This document shows, piece by piece, positions 55,599 through 63,929 of a stretch of 64,000 nt of DNA. The translations under genes were made by a program, and so were the position numbers. This stretch comes from Schizosaccharomyces osmophilus (Eukaryota). The first letter of the stretch is position 1. Each line of letters starts with the position of its first letter. The notes below the pieces were generated by a model. It saw only the letters and a list, made by a program, of their open reading frames with translations, had not been told where the DNA came from and searched no databases. The DNA is taken from contig NC_079238.1 in NCBI RefSeq assembly GCF_027921745.1, positions 930,001-994,000 of the forward strand, in the 5' to 3' direction.

Positions 55599-55728
55599 AG
55601 CCTACAGCACCCTGGATTCCCATGTTGTCTCCAATCGTAGTACTAACGAGGCGAGGCCCTCAGACGTTTTCACTTAACTGCAGTGATCGGACGGGAACTG
55701 GTGTTTTCACCTAGGTGTGGCCGTAGAC
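55599..55728 (-). pseudogene. Degenerate 5S rDNA copy (130 bp; 6-nt and 5-nt insertions plus substitutions)
   Basis: Reverse complement GTCTACGGCCACACCTAGG..TGCTGTAGGCT; versus the copy at 60159 it has an extra TGAAAA and a duplicated GCCTC. Confidence 0.85.
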
Positions 55729-56399
55729 ATTGATTCGCTTTGTAAAAGCAATAAGAGCAATTCGTCTTGTTGTAGTTGATGGTCTTTAGCGTTGTGTGTT
55801 GGCCTGATGTCCTTTAAAATCCAATTCTACTCAGCTCTACCTTTGGTTATTTTTCAGGGCTGAATGAAAAATGCTTTGTTCAATTACAAAATTGATAAAG
55901 TGCAACACTTGGGATGAAAACAAACTGTTTTTCCCTTCTCTATTGATTCACGTTGTGCTAGGCCACCACCACCTAGGAAAGCTGGACTAATAAAGTTGGA
56001 ATATGCGAGAACACTCGTTACTCTTTATCATACAAAAGAGGAATAAATGATTTTTCTAGAGATATCGAGAATGACGAGTGAAGCTGTAGTAAACAAAAGA
56101 ATTCAAGGAATAAAAAAGCAGAAAATGGCATTTTCTTATTCAGATTGAAAAGAAAGAACTAAAACATGACGTGAGAGATGAATAAACTACACGGAACTTC
56201 GAGGAATCCCCAAGTGGTGGCAAGCTGGCCATGCCAGCAGCATCTAGAAAGTACTAGGGCTCTTAAGAAATGTTTGACCCATCGTTGTGTTCAGGTATAA
56301 ATAGGAGTGAAGTAGGGTCGATTCGACAACATTGACAAAAGAAGAACAAGAGTTAATTTTATAGTTTATTTTCAAGTGTGAAAACAAGCGCTATTTACA

Positions 56400-56831
56400 A
56401 TGTCTCTTCAACCTTTCTTCGAGTTGCATCCTTTCCAAGACGTCTTTTCTGACTTTTTGAGTTATTCTCCTCGTGTCCAACGCCAAAATCGTGTTGGCGA
56501 TTTGTCACCGGCAATTGATGTTCACGAAGGAAAAGATACCGTCGAAGTGGATGTAGAACTTCCTGGTGTCAAAAAGCAAGACGTACAAGTTCATTATGAT
56601 GAAGGAAAATTGACGATTTCTGGTGAATCTGTGAACGAGCGCAAGAGCGAAGGCGACAAGGGAAACCAAAGATGGTCGGAACGTCGCTTTGGTTCCTTTT
56701 CTCGAACAATCGCCATTCCAAACAAGGTAGATGCCGATCGTATTGAAGCTCAATTCAACCACGGTATTTTAAGCGTTGTCTTGCCCAAGATTGAGGAATC
56801 TCGCTCCAAGAAGCAAATCGCCATTAATTAA
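56400..56831 (+). CDS. hsp16: Small heat shock protein (Hsp20/alpha-crystallin family)
   Basis: LSPAIDVHE..VELPGVKKQDV..WSERRFGSFSRTI..FNHGILSVVLPK..IAI; TATAAATA at ~56297, CRE TGACGT at 56167. Confidence 0.92.
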   Translation: MSLQPFFELHPFQDVFSDFLSYSPRVQRQNRVGDLSPAIDVHEGKDTVEVDVELPGVKKQDVQVHYDEGKLTISGESVNERKSEGDKGNQRWSERRFGSFSRTIAIPNKVDADRIEAQFNHGILSVVLPKIEESRSKKQIAIN

Positions 56832-57965
56832 GCTAAAGGGCTTCTAGCGGTAAATGAGTTTATGATGATATGAATATAATGAGAATTTTTAATGGCCTTT
56901 TTTAATAAAATAATGTTTAAATGAAAATTTATCAAAATTACAAAGGTACTCAGTTCAATATTGTTTATATTAAGTAGCACGGCGATAAAAACAATGTAAG
57001 TTTACAAGTCTCCAATCTAAGTATTTTAGTCGTTGCATGCTTTTCCAACGTAGTTTAATTCTCGGTCTATGAACATATATCGAATGGAAATTGATAACTG
57101 AAAACTGCAAAGCTGTTTAACTGTTTTACTGACCATGTTATTTTCGAGGACTACGTGTATATATGCTAATGTATTGGAAGATGTCGTTTAATAAAATAAA
57201 AAAGTCAAAACTGCTTTATTGAATCACACCAGTCGAATCTTCGAATTTGAAGACTTTAGCTACGGAATCATAGAATATCTAGCTTTTTTTCTCAGACTAA
57301 CCAACGTATATGATATCTTTAAACATGGATATGAGAATGAAACTTTTGAGTTAAATTTAGAAATCATAGTAGACCTATTCCTTGAAATTATTCAAGGACA
57401 AAATGGTTTCTATTTCAATAGTACGCTATTGTTTTTAAATGGCTTGAATTGTTTCTTGCACCGCCTTATTAACGCCGTTTCTTGTAGAGTAAAACACTAT
57501 ACGCCGTTTATTTTGTCTTTCAGAAAGCTAATATCTTTACTACATCTTTTCAATATTCTGCAAATAAAATGGTAATCAATTAATAATACGAATTAAATTT
57601 CTTATAAAATATTAGGAAAAATCTATTCGAAGCATCGTCCGGCATATTACTGACGAGGACATTATAAAACGAATGTATTAGTTCAAACAGCAGAATCTTC
57701 ACTTCGGAAGACGATAAATGGGAACGTTTTTAGCAATATAAAGAATAACTCAATTTAGATATAAGAAAGAAAAAACTCGCAGGTTCAAATTATCCAAGAG
57801 TAGTTGATCGATCTTATACGTTCATTGTTCATGTAGGCGATAAAATAAAAAAGCTTTTCATGCCAGAAAAAGAAAGGAAAAATTAAGAAACCATAAAGTA
57901 AACATTATGCTAATAAACAGTCATTTCAAAAGATGACTCAATATGCTTGAAAAGCGCCTTCAAAG

Positions 57966-60937: not shown

Positions 60938-62122
60938 TCAAACTTCAGCCCTTTGCTCAGCAAGAGGTTGAAGTTCGATTTCTTCGTTACGAGGTGCTTC
61001 ATCTCCTCGATTTGTTCCTTTTGAATTGGTTAATAACGCCTTGTGATAGGAAGCATTTACCAAGTGTACATACCGAACATATGAACCACAGCATTTCCCA
61101 AGCCGTGTCCCAAGCCATTTATTCCGTTTCCTAAGCCATTTATGCCGTTTCCTAAGCCATTTATGCCGTTTCCTAAGCCACTCATGCCGTTTCCCATATC
61201 GACGACTACTAATCTAAGTCGTTCACGCGCATTTGCATTCACTATAACTGTTAGAACATTTCGCGGGTGTATGACATACTCGTCAAATAAAGAAACAAGA
61301 CAAAGTTAACAAAACAAACAGCATAGAAAAAATTGTTGTTTATCTTTTCAAATCCTGTGAACTTCTTTGCAGCATAATACGCGGTGAAACCGAGGACATC
61401 GAGAAAACACACACATAATACTGAGATACACATAGCTGACAATACGTTTTTGGTTAATCTTCCAGTTTGCCTGTACCATTCCGGATATGTTACAAGAATC
61501 GCTAAAAATAAGTCAGTTGTTCGAAGACAAGAAATTGTTGACTTACTGAATAGGAAAATAAAAATGGATCCAATAGAACCGCCAGCAAGCCCGTAAAAAA
61601 CATTCGTATACGGAGAAACCTTGTAACCAAAAACTATGGCTAGAAAAACAGTATTATATAAAATAGCTATAATAGTCATTATGCCTACGAAAAAGTTTTT
61701 CCACCACTCTTTATTCGTTAAAGGGTCCGACCTGATGTTATTAACAGTATCTTGGGCGGAATTTTGAGCGGATCCATCAGCCATTTCTAGATCAACATTT
61801 TTTTTTGAGACTAATGGATGTATTAGTAACTGTTTTTTCGTGGTTTACGAAAGGATAGAGGTGTTTGTCGCGCTTGCTGACAGTTATCGACCAGGTGATT
61901 GAATTCAAACCCAACAATCAAATAAACAAGCATGATTCTTCCATCATGAGCCGTTCAAACAAGAACACAAAGAATAAACCTTTCCGTTCTATTTCAACTA
62001 ATCTTACCTGAATACGGAGGAGGCGTACCATCTGAAGGAGACGACCGACTATCTGCCTTTTCATCATTGAGCGTTTTGGAAGAGTCATCAGAATCTGAAA
62101 TAGGAGAGTACTTGTTTTTCAT
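60938..62122 (-). CDS. wtf: wtf-family meiotic driver, 5 exons: 62122-62008, 61810-61547, 61501-61280, 61241-61074, 61017-60938 (282-aa long isoform; 235-aa short isoform from ATG 61784)
   Basis: Exon 1 MKNKYSPI..TPPPYS (PY motif), 197-nt intron 1, in-frame ATG early in exon 2, several TM segments, 21-bp Gly/Asn repeats in exon 4, acidic tail ending AEV; four GT-AG introns keep frame (849 nt); 5S rDNA nearby. Confidence 0.88.
61112..61195 (-). repeat. 21-bp tandem repeat x4 in wtf exon 4 (GNGINGL)
   Basis: Plus-strand unit aagccatttatgccgtttcct. Confidence 0.92.
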
Positions 62123-63043
62123 ATTTACAATGGCAAGTAGAGCTCAAAATAGCGCCGATATTTACACTCCAAATGAAATCAACTAGAATCGCCAAGAAAA
62201 GTCCGTAGGAACTGGTTCCGCTCTTCACAGATCTGTCAGAAAAAGGAATTGGACCTTGCTTAAAAAGCAAACTAATCTTACAACACGAGTGTTCCCTTAA
62301 AACCAAAGATGCGAGTTTGAAAAAATCTTGGTAATGGCTTTTCGCATGTCTCAATTCATAAAAGCAGCGACATTATGTCACTGACTGGTCACAGTCCTCG
62401 TTACGATTATTCAACGTTGGTTTTTCATTGCGATTTTTCGTAATAGTATAATCCAAAAGAGTCGTCGTTTATTACAAAAAGTAAACAAAGGAACATTTGG
62501 CAAAACAACCATGCTGTTTGCTTAAATTATAAAAACAGGATTAGAAATGCATATCTTTGTATTGGAAGTTTCCGTGATTTTGGCTTAATGAATTCCAGGG
62601 AAAAGGATTGAACACTCTAGATTTTCGTAGCCTTACTTTCAGCATTCGTAAATCCATCGGAAGCCTGGAAAAGCAACGTTCAAACTATCACGAACGATGT
62701 TTGTAGTGACAAGTACATCTTTCTTTTATTTAATTTATTTTGATTACACGATAGAAACAAACAAAAGCGATTTCGGACAGTTCATTCATTGTAAATATAT
62801 ATAGAATAGCGTACGCTTACTAGCTATCGGTATGTGTGTCAGAGAGGGTGGATGACAGCTTCACCTCTGCAAAACTCTAGCCATTGCCATTGTGGACTCG
62901 ATTCATGTAGTTTGGAGTTGTTACAAAGTAGATTTATATTAAGCTTATTAGTCGGATCAGATGTGTGCTACTGTTCTGAAAGTTCTGACATGAATTTGGA
63001 TGTTTACTGCCTATTTGAGTAGGTTTTGAAGGAATTTCAGAAA

Positions 63044-63929
63044 ATGATTGAAAAAAACAAATACAAATACAAATACAAAAAGCTAAAAGATGCTGATTCA
63101 GCTGACGTTCCTCGCTTGGGCACTCTTGCAACGTTTGACGGTGAACTGCCACGGTACAATGAAATCTTTAATTCTCATCTAGACGACTTGGAAAAAGGTC
63201 ATGCACCTCCGTACTCAGAAAACAGACATCAAGAAGCGTCTACCAACATGGCACAAGGAAGCGGATTCTTTATTCTTTTACGAAATGTCTTGACGGCATT
63301 ATTGTGGTTGATTTTCTGGCCGGCAGAAATTGCGAGAATTCCTGAAGCACAACGAAGACAAGAGAATGAAGCTCTTCGGCTTGGTTGGTGCTTTATTGGT
63401 TCAATCGTATTGGACTTTTTCTTTTCTTACTTTTTCCTTGTCCCCTTTATAAAGGAACCGATGAAAGAATCTGTATGGACATGGTTTCAAGCTACTGTGG
63501 CAGCTGTTCTTGTCGTCATGACTTTCTATATGTTCTTATTTGTTTTTTCACGTAAGTGGAATGGTGGGATTTTAATTTGATATGTTTACTAATGGGGTAC
63601 TTTTAGTGTTGGTGGATTCAATCGTTATATTGATTCCTCTAGTTTTTTCTGGGATTTCCTCGTTTTTCTTTGGGATTTTTTCTGGAATTTTTTCTGTGAT
63701 TACTAGTGCTCTAGGCTTCAGGATGTCATCGGATAGAAACGACTTGACGGATGATAATAGTATCCCATTAAACAGCTTGCCACCAGAGCCTGAAAACCAG
63801 TTCAACGATCGTAGTGATGATACTTTTAAACAACCGTTCTCTGAACATACCTCTGAACATACTGAGCAATCTCCAGGGTTACGCCAGGAACCGGGTCAGT
63901 CTAGGGATGTTGAAAGCGGTGGGAATTGA
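63044..63929 (+). CDS. Multi-pass membrane protein divergent from wtf, probable wtf-associated gene (wag); exons 63044-63551, 63607-63929 (276 aa)
   Basis: 55-nt GTAAGT..TACTAAT..TAG intron joins the 184-aa and 115-aa ORFs in frame; about 4 hydrophobic segments; head-to-head with wtf. Confidence 0.7.

What the first reader, a model, noticed from the sequence alone, without database searches (positions are those of the whole stretch)
55599..63929. Candidate meiotic-drive island: two unrelated killer-type genes (Tdk1-like and wtf) organised around 5S rDNA repeats
Seen: after 53 kb of housekeeping genes the order is 5S(degenerate) - hsp16 - DUF1773/Mug135-like gene - 5S(intact) - wtf - divergent membrane gene. 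Known: wtf genes are poison-antidote spore killers that associate with 5S rDNA in S. octosporus/S. osmophilus, and S. pombe tdk1 (mug135) is an unrelated single-gene toxin-antidote driver. Inference: 5S rDNA acts as a shared recombination scaffold that collects and disperses different drivers. Tight linkage would let one driver, and hsp16, hitchhike on the other.
Basis: partly seen in the sequence, partly recalled or inferred. Interest (0 to 1): 0.85.

Follow-up and report, generated by a model that had tools for sequence, protein, structure and literature searches.

The report
5S repeats collect yeast spore-killer genes
In a fission yeast, genes from two unrelated spore-killer families and a heat-shock gene sit side by side around copies of a small ribosomal RNA gene that likely serves as their shared landing site, but all are already catalogued and one of the two killer-family genes was reported inactive in laboratory crosses.

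Summary
The gene order is confirmed. The window matches Schizosaccharomyces osmophilus chr1 (offset 930,000). It holds an insertion-bearing 5S, hsp16, tdk304 (SOMG_00451), an intact 5S, a five-exon wtf (wtf1 of De Carvalho 2022) and a wag gene (SOMG_00453). Every gene is catalogued. tdk304 was tested in S. pombe and did not drive under its own or a strong promoter; the wtf is only a predicted driver. A working two-driver island is therefore not supported. The scaffold idea fares better. Against S. octosporus, hsp16 and tdk304 are an extra block at an old 5S-wtf site that is also a synteny break. Both intact S. octosporus tdk genes abut wtf-wag units. In S. cryophilus, 6-7 of 10 internal tdk loci fall within 2-3 kb of a listed 5S, but with fitted coordinate offsets and a subset chosen afterwards; all 24 give mixed P values. 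hsp16 sits beside 5S with or without drivers. Best reading: 5S copies are generic recombination docks where driver and passenger genes pile up, and tdk304 is likely a resistance-only allele. I found no tdk-5S link in print.

The parts
55599..55728 (-). 5S rRNA gene, variant with 6-nt and 5-nt insertions; likely impaired (inferred; not tested)
   Evidence: Rfam RF00001 74.3 bits; 86.8% to the right copy over 144 columns; alignment
55799..55957 (-). 5S upstream flank, homologous to 60327-60465
   Evidence: blastn 67.3% over 159 columns, E 2.2e-06; repeats D5 and D10
56400..56831 (+). hsp16 small heat-shock gene, one of a multi-copy family, divergent from the left 5S (671 bp away)
   Evidence: PF00011; 13 sequences in its 90% cluster; poly(A) loose end at 56937 in run X3
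57966..58832 (-). tdk304 (SOMG_00451), intact tdk/Mug135-family gene, 288 aa, no close copy elsewhere in the genome; published as inactive in drive assays
   Evidence: PF08593; length, strand and coordinates + 930,000 equal the tdk304 row; 94.1% to the S. octosporus protein; contigs with 0 other letters in cDNA-like runs X3 and X4, poly(T) loose end at 57556
58306..58429 (-). 33-bp (11-aa) tandem repeat in the predicted coiled-coil stalk of tdk304
   Evidence: TRF 3.8 copies, 93%; helix 122-208 in the model
59199..59207 (-). 9-nt core of the FLEX (Mei4) motif, about 370 bp upstream of the tdk304 start; function untested
   Evidence: 1 of 11 such matches in the window, 1.5 expected; motif as defined in PMC9562144
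60159..60277 (-). 5S rRNA gene, intact; downstream of the wtf and 1,326 bp upstream of tdk304 on the same strand
   Evidence: Rfam 103.8 bits; spacer length
60938..62122 (-). five-exon wtf gene (wtf1 in the CBS 15792 numbering), 282-aa long isoform; in-frame ATG at 61784 for a predicted poison isoform; PY motif at residues 34-37
   Evidence: exons 62122-62008, 61810-61547, 61501-61280, 61241-61074, 61017-60938 give P0006 exactly; 1185 bp, reverse, wag1, 5S both sides, predicted driver; introns 2-4 seen as joints; PY motif
61102..61194 (-). 21-bp (7-aa) repeat in wtf exon 4
   Evidence: TRF 4.4 copies, 91%
63044..63929 (+). wag gene (SOMG_00453; wag1), two exons, 276 aa, four hydrophobic segments, N-terminal PY motif
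   Evidence: P0060 100%; splice and hydropathy; GT..AG joint 63551-63607 in run X4; PY motif
51392..53293 (-). mcm10-type gene, last long ORF of the housekeeping block that in S. octosporus runs into the wtf72-73 locus (context)
   Evidence: Pfam zf-primase and MCM10_OB; accession order of neighbours

Best explanation
This is a catalogued S. osmophilus locus where two 5S rRNA genes in direct repeat enclose hsp16 and the tdk-family gene tdk304, next to a wtf-wag unit; the 5S copies likely act as generic docking sites for non-allelic recombination, and tdk304 is likely a resistance-only allele, not an active killer. Steps: (1) an old 5S-wtf site lay next to the housekeeping block (shown by synteny with S. 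octosporus wtf72). (2) A 4.5-kb unit carrying one 5S, hsp16 and tdk304 recombined into that 5S, by circle integration or ectopic gene conversion, leaving direct 5S repeats (inferred from the anatomy and from the model of De Carvalho 2022). (3) The same site is one end of an inversion of about 230 kb relative to S. octosporus and S. cryophilus, likely through oppositely oriented 5S-wtf units (inferred from published synteny tables). (4) The wtf is predicted to make a PY-motif antidote from exon 1 and a poison from exon 2 (by family knowledge; untested for this gene). (5) Tdk304 is transcribed and keeps the Tdk fold but has lost killing (published assay in S. pombe); it would still bind and neutralise Tdk203-like toxin (inferred). 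The genes share an address, not a joint drive mechanism.
For: Direct 5S repeats with homologous upstream flanks. S. octosporus orthologs of three left-flank genes are EPX71367, 71372 and 71373, followed by wtf SOCG_01596 at EPX71378; no tdk gene is listed for that part of S. octosporus. [quoted passage not shown] S. cryophilus tdk loci outside the terminal 5%: 6 of 10 within 2 kb and 7 of 10 within 3 kb of a listed 5S at the best offsets, P from below 0.001 to 0.041 over 18 settings. At the best chr2 offset tdk214* also falls within 4 kb of wtf3, which was not used in the fit (chance about 0.9%). No drive by tdk304 or tdk605. Tdk11, at 51% identity, resists Tdk210, and a reconstructed allele kept resistance without killing; Tdk304 is 68.5% identical to Tdk203.
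Against: The S. cryophilus test joins coordinates from two assemblies with a fitted offset and orientation, uses an incomplete 5S list (96 copies against 117 in PMC9562144), and the 10-gene subset was chosen after the first test. All 24 loci gave P 0.66-0.88 at 2 kb and 0.09-0.28 at 3 kb, and from below 0.001 to 0.89 across the grid; the 3 loci outside the terminal 10% gave P 0.08-0.74. In S. osmophilus only 2 of 9 intact tdk genes are within 3 gene numbers of one of 15 wag hits; without tdk304 it is 1 of 8, P 0.13. 57 of 93 tdk loci are subtelomeric, where hsp16, 5S and wtf are also dense. The 5S between wtf77 and tdk605 comes from De Carvalho's table and is absent from Tong's list. The two 5S copies here are only 87% alike, so they are not a fresh duplication of one copy. 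Resistance by tdk304 has not been tested in any text I read.
Confidence: 0.68

Rival explanations
1. A functional two-driver island: wtf1 and tdk304 both kill non-carrier spores in S. osmophilus, and their 2-kb linkage lets each ride on the other, with hsp16 carried along.
For: Both reading frames are intact and appear transcribed. The wtf has the driver-type layout and is predicted a driver. The authors warn that tests in S. pombe may miss activity that needs the native host. A wtf-tdk adjacency recurs in S. octosporus. A FLEX core lies upstream of tdk304.
Against: tdk304 and tdk605 did not drive under native promoters or P.adh1, while their relative tdk203 did in the same host. The wtf partner is not conserved (44%). 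Both sequenced S. osmophilus strains carry the wtf and, by the g85 entry, the tdk gene, so no presence/absence was seen between them. No FLEX hit is listed for wtf1.
Confidence: 0.12
2. Chance neighbourhood: tdk genes move by subtelomeric exchange or ordinary duplication and land near 5S-wtf units only because those regions are gene-poor, repeat-rich and tolerant of insertions; 5S plays no special part for tdk.
For: The all-24 test is not significant under tight local nulls. 7 of 9 intact S. osmophilus tdk genes are 31 or more gene numbers from any wag hit. The spacers around tdk304 look single-copy in run X1 (summed depth about 145), so there is no amplified 5S-tdk unit in this genome. hsp16 and tdk co-occur in subtelomeric blocks.
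Against: tdk304 is about 1 Mb from a chromosome end and sits between direct 5S repeats. tdk605 is inside a lineage-specific insertion at a pre-existing 5S. tdk202* and tdk203 are within 4.3 and 2.9 kb of a 5S with no offset at all, against a background of 3.5-4.9% for 2-3 kb.
Confidence: 0.17

Closest known systems
[quoted passage not shown] 2022, PMC9562144)
   Same: The right half of the locus is their S. osmophilus wtf1/wag1: 1185 bp, reverse, wag forward, 5S on both sides. The proposed spread by recombination between 5S copies is their model.
   Different: They list the downstream neighbour only as g85 (SOCG_01873, SPOG_05700), not as a driver-family gene; hsp16, DUF1773, mug135 and inversion have 0 occurrences in the main text.
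tdk killer meiotic driver family, tdk304/tdk605/tdk203 group (Zhang et al. 2025 preprint, PMC12930445; Tdk1 in Hua et al. 2024, PMC11551426)
   Same: This gene is tdk304: PF08593 domain, PP motif, repeat-bearing stalk, fold match to Tdk1.
   Different: tdk304 did not drive. The preprint notes subtelomeric enrichment and possible horizontal transfer of tdk304/tdk605 but has 0 occurrences of rDNA, rRNA, ribosomal or hsp16 in its main text; its supplementary figures were not seen.
Five-S-Associated Repeats carrying hsp16 (Tong et al. 2019, PMC6538654) and the expanded hsp16 orthogroup (SOG preprint 10.64898/2026.01.24.701316)
   Same: hsp16 placed a few hundred bases from a 5S gene; multi-copy; the SOG preprint already suggests hsp16 may be co-opted into conflicts with selfish elements.
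   Different: FSARs are centromeric repeats of S. cryophilus and S. octosporus; this copy lies among housekeeping genes and beside a tdk gene.
Multi-gene drive blocks such as the Podospora Spok combinations or Neurospora Sk-2/Sk-3 haplotypes (seen only as search listings and abstract starts)
   Same: Killer-family genes held close together.
   Different: Those carry proven active killers; here two unrelated families share a 5S site and one member is inactive in tests.

Membership tests
wtf family (non-pombe type) | Five exons with homology to annotated wtf proteins | tested here: met
   Spliced product identical to P0006; 39 homologs at E <= 0.001; introns 2-4 seen as joints
wtf family (non-pombe type) | [quoted passage not shown] | tested here: met
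   ATG at 61784, residue 49 of the long isoform
wtf family (non-pombe type) | Single PY motif in the antidote-specific tail; several membrane segments | tested here: met
   PPPY at 34-37 (definition in PMC10721834); four hydrophobic segments
wtf family (non-pombe type) | FLEX motif in intron 1 (common, not required) | tested here: inconclusive
   Only a 2-mismatch site at 61922; no FIMO hit listed; no intact S. osmophilus wtf has a confident hit
wtf family (non-pombe type) | Pfam match to the S. pombe Wtf family | tested here: inconclusive
   No Wtf-family hit for P0006, but none either for SOCG_04480, the proven driver wtf25, so the test does not discriminate
active wtf driver | Kills non-carrier spores; short transcript from intron 1 | not testable with these tools
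   Not among the genes tested in the section read; contigs cannot show transcript starts
tdk family | C-terminal PF08593/IPR013902 domain | tested here: met
   E 2.6e-20, residues 202-274; profile hits Tdk1 chains 9ja6 and 9ja5 at E 3.5e-33 and 6.3e-26; Foldseek top two hits are Tdk1
tdk family | PP motif linker followed by a long helix before the domain | tested here: met
   PP at residues 111-112, invariant in 7 of 7 aligned proteins; helix 122-208
tdk family | N-terminal Z-shaped domain | tested here: inconclusive
   Monomer model has pTM 0.27 and pLDDT 35-68 in this part
active tdk driver | Kills non-carrier progeny after germination | not testable with these tools
   Published result is negative in S. 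pombe under the native promoter and P.adh1; not filed as an active driver
wag family | Divergent from a wtf gene; multi-copy family of three non-pombe species | tested here: met
   Opposite strand, 921 bp from the wtf start; 29 hits, all from S. osmophilus, S. octosporus or S. cryophilus
wag family | 5S gene beyond the wag gene | not testable with these tools
   Outside the window; listed as present in the published table
FSAR (centromeric 5S-associated repeat) | Tandem arrays in centromeric outer repeats | tested here: not met
   Single unit among housekeeping genes; S. osmophilus centromeric 5S repeats carry no coding sequence. It works like an FSAR-hsp16 unit but is not one.
multi-driver island | Two or more active killers inherited as one polymorphic block | not testable with these tools
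   One gene published as inactive, the other untested; no population data on hand

The most novel reading that the evidence does not exclude
Dispersed 5S genes are a shared mobility network for all the selfish and fast-moving gene families of these yeasts. tdk genes, like wtf, wag and hsp16, travel as 5S-bounded units, and the tdk304/tdk605 unit crossed the species boundary that way, docking at different 5S-wtf sites, where a linked wtf driver keeps an otherwise disarmed tdk allele in place as a shield against incoming tdk203-type killers.
Probability: 0.25. Interest if true: 0.75.

Novelty: new variant of a known kind. Interest (0 to 1): 0.45.

Why it matters
How killer drivers persist for 100 million years while single copies decay is an open question, and new genomic addresses are part of the answer. 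5S-mediated spread is published for wtf only. If it also moves the unrelated tdk family and hsp16, the repeat and not the driver is the common engine, and it offers a route for the cross-species transfer proposed for tdk304/tdk605 and for hsp16. The test needs only single assemblies that already exist. The locus itself is not a new driver system.

Tried and rejected
No whole genome is held for this window, so no genome-wide scan of S. osmophilus was possible. The metagenome collection held no relative of tdk304 (204 pattern matches, 0 confirmed). The S. osmophilus genome paper's supplement with 5S and wtf coordinates could not be read. A search of the tdk preprint's supplements found 0 of 5 terms, but only 247,099 characters were searched and the figure PDF may not have been read; file 3 is a taxonomy list. 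No RNA holder was listed by the run search; run X5 covers little of the stretch and was not used. Low cover of wtf intron 1 in contigs was not used, since contigs cannot show starts. First proximity test on all 24 S. cryophilus loci: not significant. Idea that wag genes are distant wtf homologs: profile comparison probability 0.4%, limited to the PY region; no Wtf-family Pfam hit in 27 of 27; 9 representatives found, the 4 new ones looked up being S. cryophilus or S. osmophilus; no usable Atlas hit. Not supported beyond the shared motif. Idea that tdk304 is inactive because it has fewer stalk repeats than tdk203 (288 against 342 aa): weakened, since the repeat region of Tdk1 is dispensable. 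No wtf, wag, tdk or hsp16 remnant and no convincing gene in 54000-55600. Folding energy does not separate the two 5S copies. Four look-ups in earlier findings returned nothing.
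Full report
Observation. The order described is in the sequence. Rfam gives two 5S genes on the minus strand, 55599-55728 with insertions of 6 and 5 nt and 60159-60277 intact. They are 86.8% alike and share a 67% similar upstream flank of about 160 bp. Between them lie hsp16 (56400-56831, +) and a 288-aa PF08593 gene (57966-58832, -) with an 11-residue repeat. Beyond the right 5S, five exons on the minus strand splice to a 282-aa protein identical to P0006, annotated as a wtf meiotic driver of S. 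osmophilus. The divergent two-exon gene gives 276 aa and matches SOMG_00453.

Identity. Supplementary Data 1 of the tdk preprint lists tdk304 (SOMG_00451) at chr1 987,966-988,832, minus, 867 nt: the window coordinates plus 930,000. The protein is 94.1% identical to the S. octosporus hit, the figure the preprint gives for tdk304 and tdk605. De Carvalho's table lists S. osmophilus wtf1 as 1185 bp, reverse, with wag1 forward and 5S on both sides, predicted driver, no FLEX hit; the wtf here spans 1185 bp. Its downstream neighbour is given as g85, with orthologs SOCG_01873 and SPOG_05700, the latter being tdk203. That numbering is for strain CBS 15792; the number in the reference strain was not seen.

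Is it two killers? tdk304 has the family's domain, PP motif and stalk helix, and Tdk1 structures are its best sequence and fold matches. Runs X3 and X4 are labelled 'DNA?' by guess but carry poly(A)/poly(T) ends and intron-skipping joints that X1 lacks, so I read them as cDNA; they are one sample of one study. They cover tdk304 from 58879 to a poly(T) end at 57556 with 0 other letters. Yet the preprint reports no drive by tdk304 or tdk605 in S. pombe under native promoters or P.adh1, while tdk203 drove; the authors caution that a foreign host may miss activity. Since Tdk11 at 51% identity resists Tdk210 and a reconstructed allele kept resistance without killing, I infer that tdk304 (68.5% to Tdk203) is likely resistance-only; I found no test of this. 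The wtf has a start codon early in exon 2, a PY motif in exon 1 and four hydrophobic segments, as for poison-antidote wtf genes, but it is not among those tested.

History of the site. S. octosporus orthologs of three left-flank genes are EPX71367, 71372 and 71373, and the wtf SOCG_01596 follows at EPX71378. The published tables put g82 (SOCG_01595) beside wtf72-73 and g88 (SOCG_01490) beside wtf71, while wtf28 is flanked by the orthologs of SOCG_01600 and SOCG_01492. I infer an inversion of about 230 kb between wtf71 (reverse) and wtf72-73 (forward); S. cryophilus keeps SPOG_04587 and SPOG_04584 near each other in number, like S. octosporus. No tdk gene is listed for that part of S. octosporus, so hsp16-tdk304 is an extra block at an old 5S-wtf site. 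tdk304 is in none of the five syntenic tdk sets.

Recurrence. In S. octosporus, hsp16, wag, wtf and the 94% tdk are consecutive (EPX71655-58), and the other intact tdk is followed by wag and wtf (EPX71704-06): 2 of 2 intact genes. The mapping of these accessions to tdk605, tdk606, wtf77 and wtf81 is my inference from identity, length and order. The wtf77-78 locus is S. octosporus-specific, with a lone 5S at the syntenic site in the other two species. wtf1 is 63.5% identical to wtf72 and 44.3% to wtf77, so the tdk gene has different wtf neighbours in the two species: shared docking sites, not a stable pair. In S. osmophilus 2 of 9 intact tdk genes are within 3 gene numbers of one of 15 wag hits; leaving out tdk304, 1 of 8, P 0.13.

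Enrichment test. I compared the 24 S. cryophilus tdk loci with 96 listed 5S genes from another assembly, fitting orientation and one offset per chromosome and giving shuffled positions the same freedom. All 24: 8 within 2 kb (P 0.66-0.88) and 11 within 3 kb (P 0.09-0.28). After seeing this I took the 10 loci outside the terminal 5%: 6 within 2 kb and 7 within 3 kb, P at most 0.006 against uniform placement and from below 0.001 to 0.041 against local shuffles. In the same grid all 24 ranged from below 0.001 to 0.89, and the 3 loci outside the terminal 10% from 0.08 to 0.74. With no offset, tdk202* and tdk203 are 4.3 and 2.9 kb from a 5S; at the best chr2 offset tdk214* lands within 4 kb of wtf3, which was not fitted. 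This is suggestive, not settled.

hsp16. It lies within 462 bp of a listed 5S in 7 of 8 S. octosporus copies and within 1,045 bp in 15 of 24 S. cryophilus copies, 13 of them centromeric FSARs. The SOG preprint counts 14 copies in S. osmophilus, reports signs of cross-species transfer and suggests co-option into genetic conflict. The five hsp16 genes it names as a cross-species cluster are each 1-4 gene numbers from a tdk gene near a chromosome end (5 of 5, my comparison). So hsp16 and tdk travel together in places, but hsp16 is tied to 5S on its own.

Transfer between species. 94.1% is above the 88.9% average for orthologs and far above the best S. octosporus matches of this wtf (72%) and wag (67%), but within the 92.7-97.5% of three flanking genes, which were found only because they fall in 90% clusters. 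9 of 17 differences lie in or next to the stalk repeat and none in the C-terminal domain. Without tdk605 DNA I cannot separate transfer from conservation.

What is in print. I read parts 1-5 of 8 of PMC12930445, passages, Supplementary Data 1 whole and part 1 of file 3; its supplementary figures, including synteny plots, were not seen and may show 5S genes. For PMC9562144: outline, sections 5, 6 (first part), 7, 8, 10, 11, 16, passages, and parts and rows of Supplementary file 1. For PMC6538654: passages and Supplementary Data 6-8. Passages only for PMC10085805, PMC11551426, PMC10721834 and the SOG preprint. A link between tdk genes and 5S was not found in searches, and the tdk preprint's main text has 0 occurrences of rDNA or rRNA.

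Verdict. All parts are known and one supposed killer is published as inactive, so the island reading is weak (0.12). The likely real feature is that 5S copies dock tdk genes as they do wtf, wag and hsp16 (0.68), an apparently unreported extension of a known mechanism; chance clustering in repeat-rich regions remains possible (0.17). Interest 0.45.

Noticed in passing
window 63044-63929 and homologs P0060-P0088: All 29 of 29 wag proteins carry an N-terminal PY motif (LPRY or LPKY) at residue 29-35, the same position as in wtf antidote tails, before several membrane segments. They might act as Rsp5/Pub1-binding membrane proteins or wtf modifiers; wag has 0 occurrences in the PY-motif paper. No wider homology to wtf was detected.
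   Followed up: partly
window 54200-55600: A stretch with no clear gene that has similar copies elsewhere in run X1; some of those join directly to a 5S 3' end (joints 54379 to 60136 and 55499 to 60159). Possibly another 5S-associated repeat or an eroded gene (g83).
   Followed up: partly
window 55599-55728: The insertion-bearing 5S may belong to a recurring variant class: summed depth at 55650 in X1 is 1,360 against about 150 in unique flanks (a rough sign only), and Tong's S. cryophilus list has many 120-123 nt copies beside the usual 115 nt, including the one nearest tdk203.
   Followed up: no
window 62222-62282: A 59-nt intron-like joint upstream of the wtf start in run X4, suggesting a spliced 5' untranslated region.
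   Followed up: no
whole window: The 9-nt FLEX core occurs 11 times against 1.5 expected, with three copies at 53651-54379, one upstream of hsp16, one upstream of tdk304 and one between wtf and wag.
   Followed up: no
S. osmophilus SOMG_04159 and SOMG_04162: tdk313 is three gene numbers from a wag gene on chr3, perhaps a second tdk inside a 5S-wtf-wag insertion.
   Followed up: partly
PMC12930445 text: The preprint gives about 30 My for the S. osmophilus-S. octosporus split when arguing for transfer of tdk304/tdk605, but about 16 My for the group that holds both species; the shorter time weakens that argument.
   Followed up: no
window 27621-27692 (-): A tRNA gene within the housekeeping block.
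   Followed up: no
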